Assembly: GCA_951406725.2 (NCBI GenBank)
Contig: OX597819.1
Coordinates: 39,866,001-39,930,000, forward strand
DNA: 64,000 nt
Origin: Octopus vulgaris
Lineage: Eukaryota
Reading direction: 5' to 3'
Shown here: positions 3,691 through 50,803 of the stretch, piece by piece
Numbering within the stretch: position 1 is the first letter of the stretch
How the letters are laid out: every line of letters begins with the position of its first letter
The notes under the pieces: model-generated
What the model was told of the DNA's origin: nothing
Databases searched by the model: none
Seen by the model: the letters and a program-made list of their open reading frames with translations, nothing else
Made by a program: the position numbers and the translations under genes

Positions 3691-4574
<884 letters not shown>

Positions 4575-4575
<1 letters not shown>

Positions 4576-4968
4576 TAGCAGTATCGCCCGGCGTTGCTCG
4601 GGTTTGTAAGGGAAATAATTATATAAGCATTTTTAGAGATGTAAAGTATAATAGCCATCTCAATATGGCTAACCACAAAGGGGGAGGGTGTTACTGTAGC
4701 TTTTTACGTTCTGAGATTTAATAATAAATTTTAGAGAGTTACTTCCCTTATATATGTCAAAAATGGATTAAAAATGGGAAAAATTGATGGTAATTTTTTT
4801 TTTAAATCGTAGACTCATTGTAGACGCGCGCTAATACCCAGACGGTCTCGATATGAATCACGACTATAAGATACCCGGTTTTGGTTAAACTGCATCGCAA
4901 AATGTGGGAGTAGTTAGGAATCTAAATCGTAGGAGACAGACACACAACCTCACTTTTATATATAAAGA
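4575..4968 (-). mobile_element. Non-autonomous Helitron-like element
   Basis: 5' TCTTTATATATAAAAG and 3' CCCGAGCAACGCCGGGCGATACTGCTAG; near-identical inverted copy at 7802-8196. Confidence 0.75.
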
Positions 4969-5138
4969 TTTCCTCTATTTACATAATATTGAGGTCTCTT
5001 TCTTTCTTTTGTTATCTTACTGTTTTTACCAATATACATATATATATATATATATATATAAATATATATATTTTGGTCCAGAGATGTACTTGCATAGCAA
5101 GTGACTTGATCTGAGATCGTGTGCTGGAACGAAAACAG

Positions 5139-5397
5139 TTGCAGCGTTGAAGGTGTTTATAAGCCATTTAAGAAACACACAAAAATCGTTAGATTCACTT
5201 CAACATTTAAATTTAATTTGTCAAAATATTTTCGTCGCTTTGAGACCGCGACCTGTTAGCACGATATTTTTGTCAGTAAACAGGTCGCGGTCTCAAAGCG
5301 AGGAAAATATTTTGGCAAATTAAATTTAAATGTTGAAGTGAATCTAACGGTTTTTGTGTATTTCTTAAATGGCTTACAAACACCTTCCACGCTGCAA
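5139..5397. repeat. Local hairpin (~120-bp arms)
   Basis: 5139-5256 is the reverse complement of 5279-5397. Confidence 0.8.
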
Positions 5398-5421
5398 GAT
5401 ATATATATACACACATATATA

Positions 5422-5456
<35 letters not shown>

Positions 5457-5719
5457 GTGTATATGTGTATGCATGTATGTGTGTGTGTGTGCGTGTCTGT
5501 GCTTGTGATTGTCCTCCACCACTGCTTGACAACGAATGTTGGTTTGTTTACATCCCTGTCACCTAGTGGTTTGACAAAGGAAACAGATAGAATAAGTACA
5601 ATGCTTACAAAAATAAAACTGGAGTTGATTCATTAAACTATAATTCTTCAAGGCATTGCCCCAGCATGGCCACAGACCAATGGCTGGAAAAAGCAGAAGA
5701 AAGGCATGAGAAAGCTTGA

Positions 5720-6012
5720 GTTTACATGAGAAGGCCTAACAGACCTGGTAGAAACAGCAGCCAAATCTCCCTCAAATCACACCTTACTGTCTTATGTATG
5801 TATATATATATATATGAGCCAATGAGGGGGACCTCTACATGGTAGCTAGACCTGGTAGAAATAGCAGCCAAATTTCCCCCAAATCACACCTTACTGTCTT
5901 ATCTATGTATATATGTATGTATGAGCCTATGAGGGAGACCCCTACATGGCAGCTAGACATGGTAGAAATAGCAGCCAAATCTCCCTCAAATCACACCTTA
6001 CTGTCTTATGTA
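5720..6012 (+). repeat. ~107-bp tandem repeat, 3 copies
   Basis: AGAC(C/A)TGGTAGAAA(C/T)AGCAGCCAAAT...CACACCTTACTGTCTTAT recurs at ~5741, 5848 and 5955. Confidence 0.85.
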
Positions 6013-6058
6013 TGTATATATATATATATATATACAAGCCACTACGGTTATTTAATGT

Positions 6059-6597
6059 CAAGTCTTCCTCAAATCACTCTCGCTATTTACTCTCTTCCAA
6101 GAACATTTTCACTCACTCTTATCTCTTAGCTTGCCATACATTTTACTCATGTATCTATCAGCGTGATAGACAGAAACAAATATTACATCGCCATCTGCCA
6201 TCGCATTCTATTGTCTACCTGTCAACACACACACAGTGAATTACTTTCATTTTATTCGTTGCACACTGTGTGTGTGCGTGTGTGTGCGTGTGCGTGTGCG
6301 TGTGGTGTAAACCACATTAAGAAAAGCATTTGACATACACACCAGAATGTGAGTTTTCTGTAAATTTTGCTTAATTGGAGTTTAAATTTTAAAAACTGGA
6401 CCTGGCATGACCCGATGCATTCTACTCTTAAAAATGCTAGGTAAATTGTAATTGAAGAAATCCTATATTGTAGATTTCTATAACTGACAAAGGGAGGCAG
6501 ATAAAATCTGCCTTTTATAATAAGACGTAAACGCACATAGACGTAAACGCACACAAACATACAAACACACACACACACCACGTATAAACCGAATATT

Positions 6598-6676
<79 letters not shown>

Positions 6677-7072
6677 TATTATAAAAGGCAGACTTTATCT
6701 GCCTCCCTTTGGGAGTTATACAAATCTACAATATAGGATTTCTTCAATTACAATTTACCTAACAGTTTTAAGAGTACAATGCATCGCGTCATGCCAGGTC
6801 CAGTTTTTAAAATTTAAACTCCAATTAAACAAAATTTACAGAAAACTCACATTCTGGTGTGTGTGTCAAATGCTTTTCTTAGTCTGGTTTACACCACACG
6901 CAAACGCACACACACAGTGGGCAACGAATAAAATGAAAGTAAATGTAATATTTGTTTGTGTCTATCACGCTGATAGATACATGAGTAAAATGTATGGGAA
7001 GCTAACAGATAACAGTGAGTGAAAATGTTCTTGGAAGAGAGTAAATTAGCGACAGTGATTTGAGGAAGACTA
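6059..7072. repeat. Head-to-head inverted pair of a Helitron-like 5' end
   Basis: 6059-6525 is the reverse complement of 6674-7072, with scattered mismatches and one deletion; the copy starts TCTTATTATAAAAGGCAG. Confidence 0.75.
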
Positions 7073-7801
7073 AACTGAACCTATGAAACAGTGTTTATGT
7101 ATAAACAGACCCCACTTATATAAACCCTTTCGTTACCAAACCGCCCGAATTTACCTATTCATATTTAAATGAGAATATCAGAGTAAATCTCTTTAGTACA
7201 TTCGTGAAAACACGTATTATACTTCGTAAACACTTCAAATACAGTTTTGTAGAAAAATCGAAGTGTAATTTTAATTCCGTGAATTATGGGAGATTTTTTT
7301 CCGAAATTTGTTCCTATTGTGTTTTCAAAATTTGTAATTCTGACAAAAAATGGATACGAATTTCATTATATCAAGCAGCGAGTCAGAATTCGAAGGATTT
7401 TCTACTGAAGACCTTCATAAATCTAACTCTATGACTGAAAAAAAAAGCATCTTTATATAATATTTTCCTCGCTTTGAGACCGCGACCTGTTTACTGACAA
7501 AAATATCGTGCTAACAGGTCGCGGTCTCAAAGCGACGAAAATATTTTGACAAATTAAATTTAAATGTTGAAGTGAATCTAACGGTTTTTGTGTGTTTCTT
7601 AAATGGCTTATAAACACCTTCAACGCTGCAACTGTTTTCGTTCCAGCACACGATCTCAGATCAAGTCACTTGCTATGCAAGTACATCTCTGGACCAAAAT
7701 ATATATATTTATATATATATATATATATATATGTATATTGGTAAAAACAGTAAGATAACAAAAGAAAGAAAGAGACCTCAATATTATGTAAATAGAGGAA
7801 A

Positions 7802-8196
7802 TCTTTATATATAAAAGTGAGGTTGTGTGTCTGTCTCCTACGATTTAGATTCCTAACTACTCCCACATTTTGCGATGCAGTTTAATCAAAACCGGGTATC
7901 TTATAGTCGTGATTCATATCGAGACCGTCTGGGTATTAGCGCGCGTCTACGATGAGTCTACGATTTTAAAAAAAATTTACCATCAATTTTTCCCATTTTT
8001 AATCCATTTTTGACATATATAAGGGAAGTAACTCTCTAAAATTTATTATTAAATCTCAGAACGTAAAAAGCTACAGTAACACCCCTCCCCCTTTGTGGTT
8101 AGCCATATTGAGATGGCTATTATACTTAACATCTCTAAAAATGCTTATATAATTATTTCCCTTACAAACCCGAGCAACGCCGGGCGATACTGCTAG
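7802..8196 (+). mobile_element. Non-autonomous Helitron-like element
   Basis: a|TC start, 3' hairpin plus CTAG|t. Confidence 0.75.
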
Positions 8197-8240
<44 letters not shown>

Positions 8241-8690: not shown

Positions 8691-8738
<48 letters not shown>

Positions 8739-8910
8739 AATATTAGGGAATAAATCCAAATTTACAGGGAAAAAAACAGATTTAGGATTAAATCCAATTT
8801 TATAGTAAAATATTATAAAATATTATTAGAGACAAAACCACTATTTTGCAAAACAAACAAGGAAAGACTTAATCAATACATAAAATTTTAATAAATAGTC
8901 AAAAAAACCG

Positions 8911-8953
8911 CCACTACAATTGTTTCTTGTCTTGATCGACAATCTTCAGGTGG
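8911..8953 (-). ncRNA. Minimal type-I hammerhead ribozyme
   Basis: Reverse complement of 9014-9056. Confidence 0.85.
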
Positions 8954-9013
8954 ACTTCCAATAAGTCAGTTTCAAATTATGAAGTCATAATTTGAAACTG
9001 ACTTATTGGAAGT

Positions 9014-9056
9014 CCACCTGAAGATTGTCGATCAAGACAAGAAACAATTGTAGTGG
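9014..9056 (+). ncRNA. Minimal type-I hammerhead ribozyme
   Basis: ccac CTGAAGA ttgtc-gatcaa-gacaa GAAAC aatt GTA^ gtgg: intact core, stems I and II, palindromic stem III. Confidence 0.88.
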
Positions 9057-9144
9057 CGGTTTTTTTGACTATTTATTAAAATTTTATGTATTGATTAAGT
9101 CTTTCCTTGTTTGTTTTGCAAAATAGTGGTTTTGTCTCTAATAA

Positions 9145-9692
<548 letters not shown>

Positions 9693-21424: not shown

Positions 21425-21491
<67 letters not shown>

Positions 21492-21631
21492 TAATTTAGA
21501 TTCAAGTCAATTCTAATGAATTTACTTGAATGCGGTACTTAACTTAGATGCACCAGAAAACTATATGGTGTTAACCATACAGTAATGTGGGGTGATTATA
21601 AACGAGAAAGAAGCAACAAGAATGAATTAGT

Positions 21632-21722
21632 TTTTAGTACAATTGTTTCATACAAAGACAGGCTTTATTAAAAGTTGCGAAAATTGCAGCAGATAAAAGT
21701 GTCCCGTACTCATCAGCTAAAA
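21632..21722 (-). ncRNA. Type-I hammerhead ribozyme (sense to the ORF, in the 3' pLTR)
   Basis: Reverse complement of 25508-25598. Confidence 0.85.
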
Positions 21723-23132
21723 TACATATGAGTTCTCCAAACATCTTAGTGGGTGAGGCTATACTCATGAAGTATTGGAGATAATTTCATTAAAAGCAGA
21801 TTTAGGTTGTAAACAGATTTCCGAAGTTCCTTAATGATGATGCACAGTCTTATCACAGGTTTTTAATAAAAGCTTATTAGCTTCACAGAGAAGGTGAATT
21901 AATCCGTAGTGTAGATGTAAATTTCCAGAGATATGAGGAGGAATTTCATACTCACAGACGATGAATTTATCCATGGTTAATCCACAATGAGGTGGGTATC
22001 ATTTCATGCTATATGATAAGGTATTTGCCACATTACTGTTCTTTTCACAAGACTGCTAAGTTATGACTTCTAAAGGCTGAAGGAATTTTTGTGGAGCAAA
22101 GAAAAGAAAAGAAAGGAAAGAGAAGAAAAGAGACAAGGAAAAGGAAAAAGAAAAAAGAAAAAGGAAAAAGAAAAAAGAAAAAGGAAAAACAAAAAAGAAA
22201 AAAGAAAAAAGGAAAAGAAAAAAGGAAAAGAAAAAAGAAAAAAGAAAAAAGGGGAGAAGAAAAGAAAAAAGGAAAAAGAAAAAAAGAAAAAAGAAAGAAG
22301 AAAAAGTAAAAGAAAAAAAGGGGAAAGAAAAAAGGGGGAAAAGAAAAAGCGCCCACATAGAGTATACTGTGACAACTTAGAGGGAAAGAGTTCTAAAGTG
22401 ACATACTACACAGAAGAATTTGTAGACGGCCTGGCTGGCTTGAATTTGCAAGAATCCAGGAACTATAAGGAGAATATTATTTTTGACCAGTAAAACAGCT
22501 ATTTATTGCCAACCTGACGTAGTTGAAAGCAGATATGAATCTAAAGAGAATCTAAAGAGATAACAAGGTCAGGGGTAGAGGGGTCAAAGGCTATCATCAA
22601 AAGGAAATACATTAAGAGAAAAATCTAAGTGCAATCCTAACAAGAGGTCATTTAAATTTATTTATTTATTTATTCCTGCTACTGTCTTAAATTGTTGCCG
22701 TTACTATCTATACATTGACAGACTACAGGTCAAAACTTAGAAGATTAGTTTACAAGGTGTGATGGAATTGTCTATTATTTTGAAATTTCTCATACTACTT
22801 TTCAAGGGAGTAGCCTTACTTATTTAAATTTGTAATAGAATTATGAAGCCTAAGTAACTTATTTTATTAAAGTTGTGTTACCTAAATTAGATTAAATTAA
22901 AAATTAAAAATTAAAAATTAAGATTTAAAATTAAATAAAACTTCATTTAAGCAACGTACAAGTACTATTTATTTCCTTGTGCTCAAAATCAGGTGCAGTT
23001 ATAAAGAAAAAGATAACTATAGTGTGAGAACTCGCAGTTATCTACTTAAAAATTAAAGTAAAGCTATACTAGTAAGAACCCAGCTATATCTATCTATCTA
23101 TCTATCTTGTTACGATTATTCTATACAGTAAT

Positions 23133-24485
23133 TCATTTTAAATATTTTAGAGTCTTCAATTTAGCGTGGACACAAACTTGACCTACTTCAATATGGTTAT
23201 TTAACAAACCTCTATTTTTTCTATGCCTTAGAATTTCATAGGTCTCCATGGAGCAGAGTTGGCAACCAGCCCTGTTATTTTTATACGGCATTGCTCTCCT
23301 AACTATTTCCCAATTAAGGTTATAATTCCTGTTATTATTTTTGAGTTCCCAGATCTTACTTGAAAGTGTGGTGGTACCAGCTTTATGACGTAATTTAAAA
23401 GATGAGATGTGATTTCTAACTTTGTCTTGAAAATTTATCGTACAACCAATGTAAAAAAATTTGTTATTCTCAGTAGATATGGTACATTTATAGATTACGT
23501 TATTTTCCCCGCATAGACCAGGTGCCGGGCATTTTGACTTAATTCTACACTTGCACGCAGGAGGAACAACTTCAGATGTTGGATTATTCATGGGTAGATG
23601 TCTTATGTTCCTGTTATTTTGATTATCATGAGTATAATTATCTTTATTATTATTATTATTTTTATAGTTGGTGCTGCTATCTAAAGCATTGTTATTACTT
23701 ATTGATCCTTCTGCTCCATCTTTTAGGTCTAAAGTCCTAACATGATTATTTACATTATTGGTAATGTTACTATTATTGCTAGTATTTTTATCAAACTGTA
23801 TATTGTTGTTATAGATATCACTGATATTTTCATTCTCTGTATTTTCTCTATTAGCCTTACTTCTATTATTAACATTATTACTTCTTTTAATATCGATATT
23901 ATTATTACTCCTATTAATGTTAATATTATTATTAGTCATTCTGTGGTTACTGATTCCATCCATGTTTTGATAGTTACTATTGTTGCGTTTATTGTTGGTA
24001 GTATTATTATAATTGTTATTGGTATTCATGTTGGTATTATTATTTTTATTTTTATCTTTCCTGGCTAGCTTAATGTTGTTATTATTAATCTTAGCTATTA
24101 AAGTGGACATATTTGGGAGGGTTGAATAAGAAATCCTAACTGTTTTCTTAGAAATAATTCTATGATATCTATGAGAGATTGGGAAATTTTTTTCCAGAAT
24201 TACTTTGAATTTGCTCTGTATATCCGATTGAATCGCACAGTTGAAAGGAATATTCAGCCATATTATATCTTTCTTATTAAATTTCCTTGAATTAGAATCA
24301 GGGTTCGTAGAATTATTACAATTCATCTCATCAAAGTCATTGTACTTATTACTATTATTTGTGTGCATCTTTGATTTATTTAATTCGATTTTATCCGAGT
24401 TACCTATGCTTTGGTCTTTTCTTCTATTTGAATTATTGGGCTTGTACGCTAGATTTGCGGTTACCGTGAATAACAATTCCATCAC
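23133..24485 (-). CDS. PLE C-terminal half: post-thumb linker, Asn-rich insert, CxCx5CP Zn finger and GIY-YIG endonuclease; no RT domain
   Basis: Motifs IIWLNIPF, FPISHRYHRI..TVRISYSTLPN, CKCRIKSKCPAPGLC, VIYKCTI..FYIGCT, LSSKIWELK, WEIVRRAMPY, CQLCSME, LLN..E...CVH; 450 codons uninterrupted. Confidence 0.88.
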   Translation of the reverse strand: MMELLFTVTANLAYKPNNSNRRKDQSIGNSDKIELNKSKMHTNNSNKYNDFDEMNCNNSTNPDSNSRKFNKKDIIWLNIPFNCAIQSDIQSKFKVILEKNFPISHRYHRIISKKTVRISYSTLPNMSTLIAKINNNNIKLARKDKNKNNNTNMNTNNNYNNTTNNKRNNSNYQNMDGISNHRMTNNNININRSNNNIDIKRSNNVNNRSKANRENTENENISDIYNNNIQFDKNTSNNSNITNNVNNHVRTLDLKDGAEGSISNNNALDSSTNYKNNNNNKDNYTHDNQNNRNIRHLPMNNPTSEVVPPACKCRIKSKCPAPGLCGENNVIYKCTISTENNKFFYIGCTINFQDKVRNHISSFKLRHKAGTTTLSSKIWELKNNNRNYNLNWEIVRRAMPYKNNRAGCQLCSMETYEILRHRKNRGLLNNHIEVGQVCVHAKLKTLKYLK

Positions 24486-25507
24486 ACCTTGTAAACTAAT
24501 CTTCTAAGTTTTGACCTGTAGTCTGTCAATGTATAGATAGTAACGGCAAAATTTAAGACAGTAGCAGGAATAAATAAATAAATACATTTAAATGACCTCT
24601 TGTTAGGATTGCACTTAGATTTTTCTCTTAATGTATTTCCTTTTGATGATAGCCTTTGACCCCTCTACCCCTGACCTTGTTATCTCTTTAGATTCTCTTT
24701 AGATTTATATCTGCTTTCAACTACGTCAGGTTGGCAATAAATAGCTGTTTTACTGGTCAAAAATAATATTCTCCTTATAGTTCCTGGATTCTTGCAAATT
24801 CAAGCCAGCCAGGCCGTCTACAAATTCTTCTGTGTAGTATGTCACTTTAGAACCCTTTCCCTCTAAGTTGTCACAGTATACTCTATGTGGGCGTTTTTTC
24901 TTTTCCCCCTTTTTTCTTTCCCCTTTTTTCTTTTTCTTTTTCTTCTTTCTTTTTTCTTTTTTCTTTTTTCTTTTTTCTTTTTCCTTTTTTCTTTTCTTCT
25001 CCCCTTTTTTCTTTTTTCTTTTTTCTTTTCCTTTTTTTTCTTTTCCTTTTTTCTTTTTTCTTTTTCCTTTTTCTTTTTTCTTTTTCCTTTTCCTTGTCTC
25101 TTTTCTTCTCTTTCCTTTCTTTTCTTTTCTTTGCTCCACAAAAATTCCTTCAGCCTTTAGAAGTCATAACTTAGCAGTCTTGTGAAAAGAACAGTAATGT
25201 GGCAAATACCTTATCATATAGCATGAAATGATACCCACCTCATTGTGGATTAACCATGGATAAATTCATCGTCTGTGAGTATGAAATTCCTCCTCATATC
25301 TCTGGAAATTTACATCTACACTACGGATTAATTCACCTTCTCTGTGAAGCTAATAAGCTTTTATTAAAAACCTGTGATAAGACTGTGCATCATCATTAAG
25401 GAACTTCGGAAATCTGTTTACAACCTAAATCTGCTTTTAATGAAATTATCTCCAATACTTCATGAGTATAGCCTCACCCACTAAGATGTTTGGAGAACTC
25501 ATATGTA

Positions 25508-25598
25508 TTTTAGCTGATGAGTACGGGACACTTTTATCTGCTGCAATTTTCGCAACTTTTAATAAAGCCTGTCTTTGTATGAAACAATTGTACTAAAA
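25508..25598 (+). ncRNA. Type-I hammerhead ribozyme with extended stem II
   Basis: ttttag CTGATGA gtacgggaca...tgtctttgtat GAAAC aatt GTA^ ctaaaa; 6-bp stem I; predicted cleavage after 25592. Confidence 0.85.
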
Positions 25599-25625
25599 AC
25601 TAATCCATTCTTGTTGCTTCTTTCT

Positions 25626-25697
<72 letters not shown>

Positions 25698-36392: not shown

Positions 36393-36396
<4 letters not shown>

Positions 36397-36966
36397 GAAA
36401 TATTGAATTTCTAAATGTCTCAGAGAGACATAAGCGGTGGTGGAGCGATATAGTGGTCGTATACACCACCGCCATTTAGCCCTTTGCAAATATAAGGACA
36501 CAGAAAATGTGTCAAAGCCGGCAGGAGACGTCGATGTTTCCTAGGGCTAAATGGCGGTAGTGTAATTACCTTACGGGACTGTCACATTGAGTTGACGGTA
36601 TACGACCACAATATCACTCCACCACCGCTTATGTCCCTCTGAGACATTTAGAAATTCAATATTTCTAATTTCGCTGATCAGTAAATAAATTTTACTGATA
36701 ATATGATATATTTGTGAAGAGGTTGCGGTCATCTCAGCGAGCGAGACAAGCTACCCTGAACTGACGACGAACAATAAACTCAGAAACATATGTCGTCAGG
36801 TGCTTAGTCCCAGCTGGCGAGGGTGATTGCCTCCCCTTTGCAAATATAAGGACACAGAAAATGTGTCAAAGCCGACCGGAGACGTCGATATTTCCTAGGG
36901 CTAAATGGCGGTGGTGTAATCCCCTTACGGGACTGTCACATTGAGTTGACGGTATACGACCACTAT
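36393..36966 (+). mobile_element. Retrozyme/PLE pLTR-like HHR element (354-bp period, 5' inverted segment)
   Basis: 36481-36610 is repeated at 36835-36964; 36393-36474 is inverted relative to 36598-36668; HHR at 36755. Confidence 0.7.
36755..36800 (+). ncRNA. Minimal hammerhead ribozyme (weak stem II)
   Basis: cctgaa CTGACGA cga..tca GAAAC atat GTC^ gtcagg. Confidence 0.6.
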
Positions 36967-37196
36967 ATATATATATAGTTATATTTTATAATTATACTTA
37001 AATATAAATTAACCATTATGGTCTTGTTAGTATGTTGGCCACTAATAAATCATTAAATAATGACTTTATTCTAATTATGTATAAATATATATATTAATTC
37101 ACTCCACAAACACATTTGCTTAGTAAATAACCATAAGGTTGAAATGGACGTTCGAGTTTTTGTATCGTATATATGTGTGAAATGCATGTATATGCT

Positions 37197-37229
<33 letters not shown>

Positions 37230-37237
<8 letters not shown>

Positions 37238-37842
37238 GTCGTATACCGTCAACTCAATGTGACAGTCCTGTAAGGGAATTACACCACCGCCATTTAACCC
37301 TAGGAAACATCGACGTCTCCTGTCGGCTTTGACACATGTTCTGTGTCCTTATATTTGCAAAGGGGAGGCAATCACCCCCGCCAACTGGGACTAAGCACCT
37401 GATGACATATGTTTCTGAGTTTATTGTTCGTCGTCAGTTCAGGGTAGCTTGTCTCGCTCGCTGAGATGACTGCAACCCCTTCGCAAATATATCATATTAT
37501 CAGTAAAATTTATTTACTGATCACCGAAATTAGAAATATTGAATTTCTAAATGTCTCAGAGAGACATAAGCGGTGGTGGAGTGATATTGTGGTCGTATAC
37601 CGTCAACTCAATGTGACAGTCCCGTAAGGGAATTACACCACCGCCATTTAGCCCTAGGAAACATCGACGTCTCCTGCCGGCTTTGACACATTTTCTGTGT
37701 CCTTATATTTGCAAAGGGCTAAATGGCGGTGGTGTAATTCCTTTACGGGACTGTCACATTGAGTTGACGGTATACGACCACTATATCGCTCCACCACCGC
37801 TTATGTCTCTCTGAGACATTTAGAAATTCAATATTTCTAAAT
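37230..37842 (-). mobile_element. Inverted second copy of the 36393-36966 element (HHR at 37398-37443)
   Basis: Reverse complement with few substitutions and one ~39-bp indel. Confidence 0.75.
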
Positions 37843-37879: not shown

Positions 37880-40028
37880 GGCGCAGGAGTGGCTGTGTGG
37901 TAAGTAGCTTGCTAACCTCACTGACAGAAGAGTGACTTTGCTTACCGTACTACGGTTTGGACGCGTTTTCTTCCCGGTAAGAGTTTTGCTGTGTTGTTAA
38001 TTGTTGAATTCCTACTACTGAAAATTTGCCTTTAAACGTTGCTGAACTGTCTTGTTCTCCGGTTTTACCGGGAAATAATTGAATAATTTCTTACCGTTGA
38101 ACTGTTAGCCATTGTGGCTTTTTATTTAGGTGACTATATATAGTCCTGCCAGACTATTTTCGTGCCCCTCCCCGAATGGGGGTGGGAATTGGAATTTTTG
38201 AACTGCTTTTTTGAACTACTTTGGAAGAAAAACTTTCTATAGGTTTCCCAGTTTTGTGGGAAACCAATATTCGTAATTTTTGTGTTGTCTAATTTCAACA
38301 GAATAATGTCTCTTGAAATTATTCACGAAAGTAGTGCTCTTGAGGAGAGCAATGTTAAAAAATTTTCTGCGGTAGCCGCAGTGGCTACCGAGAACATTGA
38401 CATCGATGTCAATCAGCTCGTCGAGCTATTTAAAAGAATGCCAGAGGAGGGTGGTGATGTTAAAATATCACCCTCCGCCAGTATCGTGGAGACCGAGAAG
38501 CGGACCGTAGTGTTTAAAACTTTCTGTCCACAAAGCAGAAGGTTCAAACACTTTGAAAAAAGCACCATCGAGAAATGCCTGTCCCCGATTTGGAAGGACA
38601 TCGTGTACGTCGCCAGGGGACGGGCATATGGCACTGTGGATGTCCGCTTCTCGGGGGAAGAAATTGCCCGCGGGCATTCTGTAAACCCCCTAAAAACCAA
38701 GGAGGTGGTACTTTTCCCAAGCTATAGGGGACGCAGGACGTCCCGGGTCAGGATTGTAGAAGCCCCGCCGGAAGTAGATCCGGCAGAGGTAGTGGCCGCC
38801 CTGTTATATAAAAGGGCGGACAAAATTAAAATACTAGAAGTAACATGCTCTGCCCCTCTATTTTGGCTCGGGCGTAACATTAATATATTAATTCAAGGAA
38901 CAGCGGAGGACCTGCAGCTCCTTCCTGAGAGGGTGCTCGTGGGCGAGAACATAGCCCTCAGGGTACAGGTCGAAGGCCGAAAACCCACCTGTTACGCCTG
39001 CGGCAAAAAAGGCCACATTCGTGTAGACTGTCCAGACAAGCAAAAGAAACCGCAGATACCAGGCCCCTCAGATAATAAAAAAGTCCCTACCCTTGCAAAC
39101 TCACCTACCCCTACAAAAACAAAAAATCCCACTCCTGCTGTTACGGTGCCAACCCCAAAACAGACTGAAGAAAAAACCCAGCCCTCGCACTCACACACCC
39201 CTACATTATTAAAACCTCCCACCCCCCTAAAAACTGTGGCGCCTACCGAACAAACTTTAGCTACCCCAGACGATACCATGGAGGTATCAGAGGGGGATTT
39301 ACACCAGTTCGTAAAAGAATTCGTGCATCATCCCCGTCCACATCCCCTACAAAAAATAATAAAAACAAAGACACACCACAGACACGGAAAAAAAATCCCG
39401 CTCAACTGGCCCAGAAAAAGAAGACAAAAAAGAAAATGAACTCATATTAATTGAATTCGACACACAAGACAAATACATAAACGATATTGTGGTTCAGCAT
39501 CAGTCAGCAAGACTGTACAACAAATACAAAGATCGAAATAGACACGCGTGGATTGCGGAAACAACGTTCAAACAATTAAAAAACAGACACCCAAACGCCA
39601 TCCGGCATATCGCGAACTTGCCGGACTATCTGAAGAAAGAGGAGAAAGAAGGGGCCCACAAACGTGTGGTGAGGTCGGCCCCCACCTCTCCAACGAAACG
39701 TAAGTAGAACTTTTACTTTTTGTAATGGCTTCGCTGTGTGGATTTGGTAGACGGAAACTGAAAGAAGCCTGTCGTATATATGTATATATATATATGTATG
39801 CGTGTGTATATGTGTGTGTGTCTGTGTTTATCCCTCTAGCATTGCTTGACAACCGAGCTGGTGTGTTTACATCCCCGTCACTTAACGGTTCGGCAAAAGA
39901 GACCGATAGAATAAGTACTGGGCTTACAAAGAATAAGTCCCTGGGTCGATTTACTCGACTAAAGGCGGTGCTCCAGCATGGCCGCAGTCAAATGACTGAA
40001 ACAAGTAAAAGAGTAAAAGGAGTAAAGA

Positions 40029-48802: not shown

Positions 48803-49222
48803 GCTGGTCTTCCATAAACAACCGGGACTTGTGCCTCGGAGGGTAACTTTCTAGGTGCAATCACATGGTCATTCGTGACCGAAGGCGGTCTCCGACTTTC
48901 CTATTTATTAGGTGGTGTATGCAGTTGGCTAGGGACGTGGATTTGCTATGTTCTTCATATTCAAATGAGCTTTGATATGCAGAATGTTTCTATTTAAAAT
49001 TAATAGTAGACCTGATGTAGTAACAAGTAAAATTATGTAATATGTTGTGTACAATGCATTTATATAATCTACGTTAAACCTTCTGCAGCGGGCATTCGAT
49101 CCCGGATCGGCAGTTGCAACTACCTGTCTTACGCAGATGGAGAGGGAAGATGTACTATATATGGATAAATTAAAGTTAAGAGTAACTAGGGGATTGGCTC
49201 GTATCATTATTATTGCTGTTAT

Positions 49223-49422
<200 letters not shown>

Positions 49423-49789
49423 ACAGCCGTACTCCAACCTTCCTCGGAAGCGGGGATATTCGCATCCTGGTTTGTGCTAGTTATAGTGCTATGGTTATGA
49501 GCGTAGTCTATGTTATCATGTTCGACGCTAGTGTTTTCGCTGTTATTGGCCTATGTTATGATTATATATATTTAAGTAGTAGGAATTTTGAGTACGCTTA
49601 TTGGATGAGGTAACAATAGATTCTATGTTGGGCGGAGAGGAGTAAGATAATTTCAGAGTAGATCTGTTGAAGATTGAATGGCACTTATGGTGACGCGGGA
49701 AAAGGTTTTAGCTAATCTCTTAACATTTAAAGCGAATGTGGTGGGGATGAACCAGAGAATCGATCTCCCCCGTTTTTATTAGGCAATGT

Positions 49790-50094
49790 CACCGTGACCG
49801 TGACCGACCAGTCTATCAGATGCTGCTACACATCGCTGGTCACAATGCGCTTCGCATTGTTTTAGCCTTCAAATGACGCCACCCCGCTGGCTAAGCGAGC
49901 AGACCAACAGGGGAAAGAGAGAAAGTTGTGGCGAAAGAGTAAAGGCAGGGATCGCCACCACCCCCTGCCGGAGCCTCGTGGAGCTATAGGTGTTTTCGCT
50001 CAATAAACACTCACAACGCCCGGTTTGGGAATCGAAACCGCGATCCTACGACCGCGAGTCCGCTGTCCCAACCACTGGGCCATTACGCCTCCAC
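49790..50094 (-). mobile_element. SINE family C with 12-bp TSD
   Basis: TSD ATTAGGCAATGT at 49778-49789 and 50095-50106; tRNA-like head. Confidence 0.85.
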
Positions 50095-50400
50095 ATTAGG
50101 CAATGTAGGGGAAGTATAATCTGTAGTATTTGTTAGAGGAAAGTTGCAGGATTCAATGTAGTTTATCTGTTTGAATTTCGACCGAGTGTTATACGGGTGA
50201 GCGCAGGACGGACGAGAACATTTCATTCGAGGTCCTTCTATGTTTCTAGCGTGGGTTTTGGTTTTTCTATCTAAATTGGGAGGGTTAATGTGTCTTTTAG
50301 TGGGGCATGTCTCCACGGGCTGAGTTCAGAGATGTGTTTTTTAAGCCTAGTGTTTGCTATTAATTTCATTTGCTAGGAGAAGTCGCTAGCGGCTTGTTAT

Positions 50401-50575
50401 GTTCTCATTAATCTAGCCGCTAGATTAGTATTGTTTTGTTCTCATTAATCTAGCCGCTAGATTAGTATTGTTTTGTTCTCATTAATCTAGCCGCTAGATT
50501 AGTATTGTTTTGTTCTCATTAATCTAGCCGCTAGATTAGTATTGTTTTGATCTCATTATTCTAGCTGCTAGCGGC
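50401..50575. repeat. 37-bp tandem repeat, 4 copies plus a partial, each with an internal hairpin
   Basis: GTTCTCATTAATCTAGCCGCTAGATTAGTATTGTTTT at 50401, 50438, 50475 and 50512. Confidence 0.9.
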
Positions 50576-50803
50576 TGGTTGTAGTATTGAAGATTTCTTC
50601 CGTGGCTGAAAGATCCGATATCCGGATAGATATGCCTTTGGTTATACTATCGAAGGCAGATTTATGGTGATTAGAATCTATGTTAATGTATCTGAGTAAT
50701 GATTAGGTTCATGGTAGGGTGAGATTCCATGGTATGTCGGTTAATGGTATGTGAAATTCCACTGCGAATTTCCTTGTCTAGAACTTTCATATATATTCAC
50801 CTT

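What the first reader, a model, noticed from the sequence alone, without database searches (positions are those of the whole stretch)
21485..25627. Young Penelope-like unit: intact RT-less GIY-YIG ORF between 1.16-kb ribozyme-bearing inverted repeats
Seen: near-identical inverted arms (21604-22771 / 24473-25626), a ~120-bp one-sided tail, (TA)n on both sides, and an uninterrupted 450-codon ORF. The first codons (GTG-ATG-GAA-TTG) lie inside the inverted arm and are fused in frame to the PLE just after the RT thumb. Known: 5'-truncated PLEs can carry an inverted pLTR. Inference: the rearrangement has produced a TIR-transposon-like cassette that could express a stand-alone Zn-finger/GIY-YIG protein. 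A read-through RNA would fold into >1 kb of dsRNA and could be trimmed by an HHR. This may be a mobilisable endonuclease-only family or a one-off truncation.
Basis: partly seen in the sequence, partly recalled or inferred. Interest (0 to 1): 0.82.

Follow-up and report, generated by a model that had tools for sequence, protein, structure and literature searches.

The report
Truncated Hydra-clade Penelope retrotransposon copy
This is a front-truncated copy of a many-copy Penelope-type jumping gene, likely from an octopus, that lacks its reverse transcriptase and carries a mirror-image copy of its own rear end in front; that layout is already described for these elements, and this copy's DNA-cutting domain is likely weakened by a change at a key arginine.

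Summary
The anatomy is real: 99.5% identical inverted arms, a 116-nt one-sided tail, (TA)n flanks, a hammerhead in each arm, and an open 449-aa frame with a GIY-YIG fold and no RT. It is a Hydra-clade Penelope-like element (Craig et al. 2021), not Naiad, Neptune or Poseidon. It belongs to a many-copy family whose named relatives are Octopus gene models.

The layout is ordinary. Penelope-13_HM has it. Control locus L013 has it, also RT-less with an open endonuclease frame. An unrelated 0.4-kb insertion 12 kb away has it too.

This copy has Lys where the GIY-YIG Arg should be: Arg in 144 of 148 homologues and in 87-100% of family depth in four runs. An in-frame ATG from the arm arises about 10% of the time by chance.

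The junction is therefore not private to this assembly, but that contig could be an allele of this locus. No RT-bearing sibling was found, and the searches could hardly have shown one. Verdict: probably an inactive truncated copy; a mobile RT-less family remains possible (about 12%).

The parts
21426..21487 (.). (TA)n target microsatellite, 3' side of the element
   Evidence: Hydra-clade families insert in (TA)n (PMC8557442 section 11)
21488..21603 (-). One-sided 116-nt tail (3' extension), strongly structured as RNA
   Evidence: absent from arm 2; -27.8 kcal/mol, z -4.44, 0 of 200 shuffles as good
21604..22771 (-). Arm 1 = distal 1.17 kb of the element's 3' region (pLTR), in sense with the ORF; holds an A/T-rich tract at about 22090-22350
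   Evidence: contigs of X5, X9 and X13 join 22772 to the arm sequence (table 5)
21632..21722 (-). Type I hammerhead motif in sense with the ORF; predicted cut after GUA at 21638
   Evidence: read from the sequence; motif script; same form as the Hydra HHR table in suppl. File S2
22772..23132 (-). Proximal 3' UTR, not duplicated
23133..23555 (-). Hydra-type CxCX5C linker plus GIY-YIG endonuclease (VIY..YIG, E420, N435, CxxC, CxH); Lys361 at the Arg site (nt 23422)
   Evidence: AlphaFold model pLDDT 92.7; best match I-TevI Z 9.2, rmsd 2.4, 90 aligned
23568..24083 (-). In-frame Asn-rich insert (172 aa, 37% N)
   Evidence: SYS-to-CxC distance 192 aa against a median of 31 in 97 proteins
24096..24275 (-). 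Post-thumb linker region (IIWLNIPF...SYS; family motif WFNPPF)
   Evidence: tblastn E 2e-10 with a profile consensus of Hydra-type ORFs
24438..24472 (-). 5'-most native sequence: end of the RT thumb (LAYKP) and the truncation/inversion junction at 24472/24473
   Evidence: compared by eye with the alignment; junction spanned by X13 contig 24388-24540 with 0 differences
24473..25626 (+). Arm 2 = inverted, 5'-truncated second copy of the 3' region; read on the ORF strand it supplies GTG-ATG-GAA-TTG (ATG at 24482-24480)
25508..25598 (+). Hammerhead motif of arm 2, antisense to the ORF; predicted cut after 25592, 34 nt from the arm end
25628..25695 (.). (TA)n target microsatellite, 5' side

Best explanation
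This is likely a single, passively made insertion of a many-copy Hydra-clade Penelope-like retrotransposon: two 5'-truncated copies of the element's 3' part sit head to head in a (TA)n run, and the longer one keeps the linker and GIY-YIG frame but no reverse transcriptase. Inferred mechanism: an RT-bearing family member nicked the (TA)n target and began cDNA synthesis in the structured tail past the hammerhead. It stopped at the end of the thumb coding region, and an inverted copy of the 3' 1.15 kb, ending at the second, shorter 3' end point, was laid in front (fold-back or second priming). The frame is open because the source was under selection and the copy is young (about 0.6 My on a rough published clock). 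The start codon from the arm is an accident. The copy has since gathered mostly amino-acid-changing private substitutions, among them Arg to Lys at the nuclease active site, so it is likely inactive. Shown: anatomy, clade features, fold, copy abundance, Lys361. Inferred: the insertion steps, the age, the RT-bearing parent and the loss of activity.
For: Clade features match section 11 of PMC8557442. [quoted passage not shown] Controls: 2 of 78 Hydra-type loci show an inverted 3' end abutting the truncation point. One of them, L013, is RT-less, flanked by (TA)n and has an open 301-codon endonuclease frame. The window holds a second, unrelated head-to-head hammerhead pair with a one-sided tail in (TA)n at 8738-9149 (165 of 166 pairs). 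Control ends fall 32-57 nt (7 loci) or 100-116 nt (8 loci) past the hammerhead cut, in the 15 of 53 loci where a (TA)n end was seen; here they fall at 34 and 150 nt. Residue 361 is Arg in 144 of 148 homologues and Lys in none; family contigs read Arg at 87-100% of depth in 4 of 4 runs. The Tyr+10/His+4 spacing equals I-BmoI Y17-R27-H31, where R27 is essential (PMC2853131). An in-frame ATG arises at 110 of 1109 arm end-points. Once a distant family that aligns only at 24499-24549 is removed, arm depth is about equal to 3' UTR depth in X1 (329 vs 345) and X9, not twice it. N-rich inserts between RT and EN are described in rotifer PLEs (PMC3846280).
Against: An X13 contig spans the same junction with 0 differences over 153 nt at depth 10.3. 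All X13 depth at 24320, 24380 and 24564 carries the non-window allele, and 24564G is in both arms here but in none of the four runs. If X13 held a young allele of this locus, 4 or more differences in about 270 nt has P about 0.03 (this assumes the neighbouring contigs are the same copy, which is not shown). No run holds more than 45% of this copy's words (about 2.5% divergence), which is more than the arm age predicts. No close RT-bearing relative is among the best 150 of 4239 hits. Arm depth in X5 and X13 is 1.2-2.1 times 3' UTR depth. Arg-to-Lys is a conservative change, and no test of such a variant was seen.
Confidence: 0.6

Rival explanations
1. The junction arose once and the RT-less two-armed unit has been copied again a few times in trans as a non-autonomous subfamily, using its tail and pLTR as cis signals, with both arms rebuilt from the 3' arm at each round; its endonuclease frame is not under selection.
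For: Junction in X13 beside non-window alleles; 24564G shared by both arms but absent from 4 of 4 runs; word share 0.45 at most. pLTRs alone mobilised a host gene in trans in A. vaga (PMC3846280). The tail folds strongly.
Against: Only one junction contig was seen, among 32 of 1669 pieces shown. An allele of the same locus with gene conversion between the arms explains the same data. In X13 the junction contig carries 10.3 of a mean 66 depth at the ORF's 5' end.
Confidence: 0.25
2. The family as a whole is RT-less: a mobile endonuclease-only Penelope derivative that makes a Zn-linker/GIY-YIG protein from the arm ATG or from Met46/Met61 and borrows RT from another PLE; the window copy is a decaying member.
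For: The family's endonuclease looks selected: 6 of 12 listed changes in it are synonymous against 3 of 21 in the N-rich insert (Fisher P 0.044; against the neutral share P 0.07; only the 40 best-supported of 243 changes were shown). None of the 35 listed ORF changes makes a stop, and the listed ORF indels are in frame (9, 3, 114 and net 225 nt). Junction seen in a second sample. The ATG has G at -3 and +4.
Against: The same selection is expected of RT-bearing parents. In X1 and X9 arm depth is not twice 3' UTR depth. In X13 the depth at 24500, after removing the distant family, is fully explained by two 3' UTR joins and one junction contig (35.5 vs 35.4). The layout arises often by ordinary truncation (L013; 8738-9149).
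Confidence: 0.12
3. A cut-and-paste or TIR-type DNA element, or a host-domesticated nuclease gene.
For: Long terminal inverted repeats and an open frame with a start codon.
Against: The ends are asymmetric and carry hammerheads. The protein is a GIY-YIG nuclease, not a transposase. The locus seems absent from four other samples, and its active-site Arg is lost while the family keeps it.
Confidence: 0.03

Closest known systems
[quoted passage not shown] 2021, PMC8557442), including Hydra-1_Obim of Octopus bimaculoides
   Same: C-terminal GIY-YIG with CxCX5C linker, CxxC and CxH around E and N, no CCHH, hammerhead near the 3' end, (TA)n target
   Different: No RT in this copy. It is a different family from Hydra-1_Obim (by eye, IIWLNIPF and CKCRIKSKC here against TLWFAPHF and CSCRIRNEC). 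Two N-rich inserts. About 1.4 kb from stop to hammerhead against about 0.1 kb in L002 and L013. Tail 116 nt against 30-40 nt quoted for PLEs.
Penelope-13_HM (Repbase, Hydra clade; row in suppl. File S1/S2 of PMC8557442)
   Same: Incomplete protein, about 1-kb 5'-truncated inverted copy at the 5' end, hammerhead on both strands, (TA)n
   Different: Cnidarian host; how much RT it keeps was not checked
Pen2/Pen2a of Adineta vaga (PMC3846280)
   Same: 5'-truncated copies bounded by inverted pLTRs, optional tail, in-frame Asn-rich insert between RT and EN
   Different: Short pLTRs (about 200 bp) that include the ORF start; different family
Stand-alone GIY-YIG ORFs of Terminons, and animal retrozymes (PMC8557442; bioRxiv 10.64898/2026.07.22.740005, abstract only)
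   Same: PLE-type nuclease apart from RT (Terminons); hammerhead-bearing non-autonomous PLE derivatives (retrozymes)
   Different: Terminon nucleases keep CCHH and sit within giant RT-bearing units. Retrozymes are short non-coding tandem repeats (recalled). Neither is a two-armed nuclease-only unit.

Membership tests
Hydra-clade PLE | CxCX5C linker before the nuclease | tested here: met
   CKCRIKSKC, aa 317-325; cysteines conserved in 141-146 of 146-148 homologues
Hydra-clade PLE | C-terminal GIY-YIG, CCHH absent, CxxC and CxH flanking E and N | tested here: met
   CQLC..E420, N435, CVH444-446; fold match to I-TevI Z 9.2, rmsd 2.4, 90 aligned; no CCHH seen in the translation
Hydra-clade PLE | Canonical hammerhead in the 3' region | tested here: met
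   motif with stems I-III on the coding strand at 21722-21632; cleavage not tested; Rfam gave no hit
Hydra-clade PLE | Insertion into (TA)n | tested here: met
Hydra-clade PLE | RT with RWK and DKT motifs in one ORF with the nuclease | tested here: not met
   no RT homology upstream of 24472; so this is a truncated derivative, not a complete member
Hydra-clade PLE | Placement in the RT phylogeny | not testable with these tools
   no RT in this copy; a quick nuclease tree nests it among Hydra-type hits, with a starred sister P0114 and mostly open forks
Naiad/Chlamys PLE | N-terminal nuclease followed by RT; no canonical hammerhead | tested here: not met
   nuclease is C-terminal and follows thumb and linker; hammerhead present
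Neptune, Nematis, Penelope/Poseidon PLE | CCHH in the nuclease; CX2-5CxxC linker or none | tested here: not met
   motifs read against the definitions and the alignment
Active GIY-YIG nuclease | Tyr, Arg, Glu, Asn of the active site | tested here: not met
   Y351, E420, N435 present; Arg replaced by Lys361; activity not assayed
TIR DNA transposon | Symmetric terminal repeats, DDE transposase, fixed target duplication | tested here: not met
   one-sided tail; GIY-YIG fold; no duplication can be read in (TA)n
RT-less mobile family (proposed) | Same junction at many independent loci | tested here: inconclusive
   one junction contig in X13, flanks unknown; no genome held

The most novel reading that the evidence does not exclude
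An octopus Penelope derivative that has dropped its reverse transcriptase for good, keeps a selected Zn-linker/GIY-YIG nuclease frame, rebuilds two identical 1.15-kb inverted arms at each round by fold-back, and spreads using another element's RT: a split RT/endonuclease retrotransposon system.
Probability: 0.12. Interest if true: 0.7.

Novelty: new member of a known kind. Interest (0 to 1): 0.27.

Why it matters
As it most likely stands, this adds an apparently undescribed, abundant Hydra-clade family in Octopus (distinct by eye from Hydra-1_Obim), with long Asn-rich inserts, a long 3' region and a long structured tail, plus a clean young example of the inverted-arm and tail layout. The two classes of 3' end seen across the control loci fit the two RT start sites reported for the anole PLE (PMC11167929). 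If the junction proved family-wide, it would be a retrotransposon that supplies only the targeting nuclease and borrows RT. My paper searches showed no such PLE family. It would make trans-complementation between PLE nuclease and RT directly testable.

Tried and rejected
No genome is held, so no in-genome BLAST; the window has no second copy of the unit. Rfam gave no hammerhead; Pfam gave nothing at threshold for the ORF. Word-index protein searches found nothing at E 0.001 for the nuclease among longer (47 candidates) or similar-length proteins (66), nor for the N-terminus among shorter ones (14): weak blanks. The exact protein is not in the collection. No close relative in metagenome contigs. 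Foldseek gave no match at E 0.001, though its top rows were GIY-YIG proteins. No earlier notes of this scan were found. No RNA holder is listed; X13 is only guessed to be RNA and contigs give no strand or level, so transcription is untested.

Withdrawn: (1) an apparent sum rule of depths at the arm start, which came from a distant family aligning over only 50 nt. (2) The lack of an RT-side loose end near 24470: only 24 of 289 loose ends were shown, apparently the deepest, so it says nothing. (3) An eye-matched decayed RT N-terminus in the arm (MRW..., YDF..., D at the DKT spacing): HMMER found nothing, and a frameshift-aware profile score was reached by 21 of 60 and 32 of 60 shuffles, and by 9-24 of 100 under four parameter sets. 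The same test detects simulated 30% decay but is near its limit at 40%. (4) A junction palindrome at 24453-24471 (7 of 9 pairs, by eye) is within chance.
Full report
Observation. The inverted arms are at 21604-22771 and 24473-25626. They differ at 6 of 1139 aligned columns (4 of 911 outside the A/T-rich tract), and nearly all gaps lie in that tract. A 116-nt tail lies on the left only, and (TA)n runs flank both ends. The minus strand carries a 456-codon open frame, 449 aa from the ATG at 24482. The ATG lies in arm 2, ten bases from its inner end. Each arm holds a type I hammerhead motif with a 6-bp stem I, core CUGAUGA, palindromic stem III and a GUA site. The one in arm 1 is in sense with the ORF; the one in arm 2 is antisense. 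Rfam missed it and it does not fold better than shuffles, but a motif script finds the same form on the coding strand of 53 of 78 related loci. The tail folds strongly (z -4.44).

What it is. A profile-free search of 1.84 billion representatives gave 4239 hits at E 0.001. Three of the best 150 are close (64-91%) and are named Octopus sinensis and O. vulgaris gene models that contain pieces of this family; the host is therefore inferred to be an octopus. The rest are about 28-42% identical, and 37 of the 150 other proteins then held carry a YRDD-type RT motif. The motifs CxCX5C, CxxC..E, N and CxH, the lack of CCHH, the hammerhead and the (TA)n target are the features given for the Hydra clade (PMC8557442, section 11 read in full). 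The fold is GIY-YIG (model pLDDT 92.7; I-TevI Z 9.2, rmsd 2.4, 90 aligned). The junction falls at the end of the thumb, judged by eye from the published alignment (supplement part 58), which also shows that Hydra-1_Obim is a different family. Contigs of four public runs cover all 30 bins of 22772-24885 with 165-627 records each at 85-100% identity, so the family has many copies (depth is not a copy number).

The layout is ordinary. Craig et al. describe an inverted 5'-truncated copy plus a one-sided tail as frequent (passages) and list Penelope-13_HM, a Hydra-clade family, with such a copy at nt 1-966 and hammerheads on both strands (supplement part 2). Passages of PMC3846280 describe truncated rotifer copies between inverted pLTRs and in-frame Asn-rich inserts between RT and nuclease. 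I fetched 78 Hydra-type loci, the best 80 of 475 confirmed stretches, many on short contigs. RT homology covers the YRDD region in 60 of them. Two (L013, L042) have an inverted 3' end at the truncation point, and three more (L023, L035, L071) begin inside an inverted copy. L013 is RT-less, lies in (TA)n and has an open 301-codon frame through the nuclease. The window itself holds an unrelated head-to-head hammerhead pair with a one-sided tail in (TA)n at 8738-9149. In 15 of the 53 control loci with a hammerhead a (TA)n end was seen; it lies 32-57 nt (7 loci) or 100-116 nt (8 loci) past the cut. Here the two ends are at 34 and 150 nt. This fits two RT start sites bounding the tail, as reported for the anole PLE (passages of PMC11167929).

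This copy looks inactive. Residue 361 is Lys. It is Arg in 144 of 148 aligned homologues and Lys in none, and family contigs read the Arg codon at 100, 92, 98 and 87% of depth in the four runs. Its spacing from Tyr351 and His365 equals I-BmoI Y17-R27-H31, where R27 is required (passages of PMC2853131; only Ala mutants were seen). Of eight ORF sites where nearly all family depth differs from the window (23269, 23422, 23553, 23698, 23740, 23886, 24320, 24380), one is synonymous. Across the family the nuclease looks selected: 6 of 12 listed changes are synonymous against 3 of 21 in the insert (P 0.044), no listed change makes a stop, and listed ORF indels are in frame; only 40 of 243 changes were shown. 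Overall the protein is not an outlier: it departs at 7 of 41 conserved columns, as do or exceed 18 of 136 proteins. An in-frame ATG arises at 110 of 1109 possible arm end-points, and a 456-codon frame stays open with probability 0.48-0.75 at 0.5% divergence. Arm divergence gives about 0.6 My on the clock quoted in PMC13282606 (passages), unless the arms were homogenised later. That paper counts 31 recently active Penelope-like families in O. vulgaris.

Results against this reading. One X13 contig spans the junction (24388-24540, 0 differences, depth 10.3). All X13 depth at 24320, 24380 and 24564 has the non-window base, and 24564G is in both arms here but in none of the four runs. No indexed run holds more than 45% of this copy's words. 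The junction may therefore be older than this insertion and may have been copied with it; an allele of the same locus with conversion between the arms is the alternative. No RT-bearing close relative was found, but the searches were weak and no genome was available. Depth gives mixed, weak evidence on whether most copies have two arms: arm to 3' UTR ratios are about 1 in X1 and X9 and 1.2-2.1 in X5 and X13 after a distant family is removed. In X13 the junction contig accounts for 10.3 of a mean 66 at the ORF's 5' end.

The RNA ideas. Transcription is untested. A read-through RNA would form a duplex of over 1 kb (follows from the sequence), but that duplex would hold the only sense hammerhead. 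PLE hammerheads with short palindromic stem III are thought to work as dimers and cleave poorly (passages of PMC4209133); the second motif here is on the other strand. Cleavage was not needed for insertion in vitro in the anole element.

Verdict. Most likely (0.6) a young, truncated, likely inactive copy of an apparently undescribed octopus Hydra-clade family in a known layout. A small trans-mobilised RT-less subfamily has 0.25, and a family-wide nuclease-only element 0.12. Paper searches for an RT-less nuclease-coding PLE family (listings only, unless named above) showed none; the only stand-alone PLE-type nucleases met were those of Terminons. Interest 0.27.

Noticed in passing
window 8738-9149: Small non-coding head-to-head pair of PLE 3' ends: perfect palindrome centred on 8983/8984 (165 of 166 pairs), a canonical hammerhead pointing outward in each arm with the same CAATTG stem III, a one-sided tail of about 80 nt on the left, (TA)n on both sides; not similar in sequence to the main unit.
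   Followed up: partly
window 36395-37841: (TA)n-bounded cluster of 91-96% identical direct and inverted repeats with two inward-facing CTGACGA...GAAAC motifs (36761 +, 37437 -); perhaps another PLE-end or retrozyme-like family, hammerhead fold not checked.
   Followed up: no
window 48870-50690 (-): Older, broken Hydra-type element: thumb (50690-50574), linker (49701-49594) and nuclease (49121-48894) pieces with stops, a long (ACT)n/Thr-coding repeat between linker and nuclease and other inserts.
   Followed up: partly
window 38243-39439 (+): 398-codon open frame with a zinc knuckle (PF00098, E 1.6e-5), like a LINE ORF1/gag.
   Followed up: no
window 24499-24549: A much deeper, distant repeat family shares only about 50 nt with the inner end of the arm (depth about 8860 in X5, 580 in X9, 94 in X13), with arm-like but diverged flanks and no ATG at the matching place; likely a sister PLE family or a non-autonomous derivative.
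   Followed up: partly
P0003, P0011 (O. vulgaris) and P0002 (O. sinensis): Named gene models begin with the Asn-rich insert of this family; two are fused to aGPCR- or ankyrin-like sequence. Likely annotation artefacts, possibly exonised copies.
   Followed up: no
window about 21660-21730 (-): The hammerhead core and its long loop II read in one frame like a stretch of the Hydra N-terminal region (22.6 bits; 0, 2, 29 and 6 of 100 shuffles as good under four parameter sets); probably chance.
   Followed up: partly
window 3769-4574 and 4531-8240: Further young inverted repeats: 199 nt at 98% and 782 nt at 99%; not examined.
   Followed up: no
L001-L078: Hydra-type insertions end in two classes, 32-57 or 100-116 nt past the hammerhead cut, and in tandem copies the ORF starts about 146-169 nt past the cut in most loci where it was found (87 nt in L068); suggests a clade-specific tail of 60-80 nt.
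   Followed up: partly
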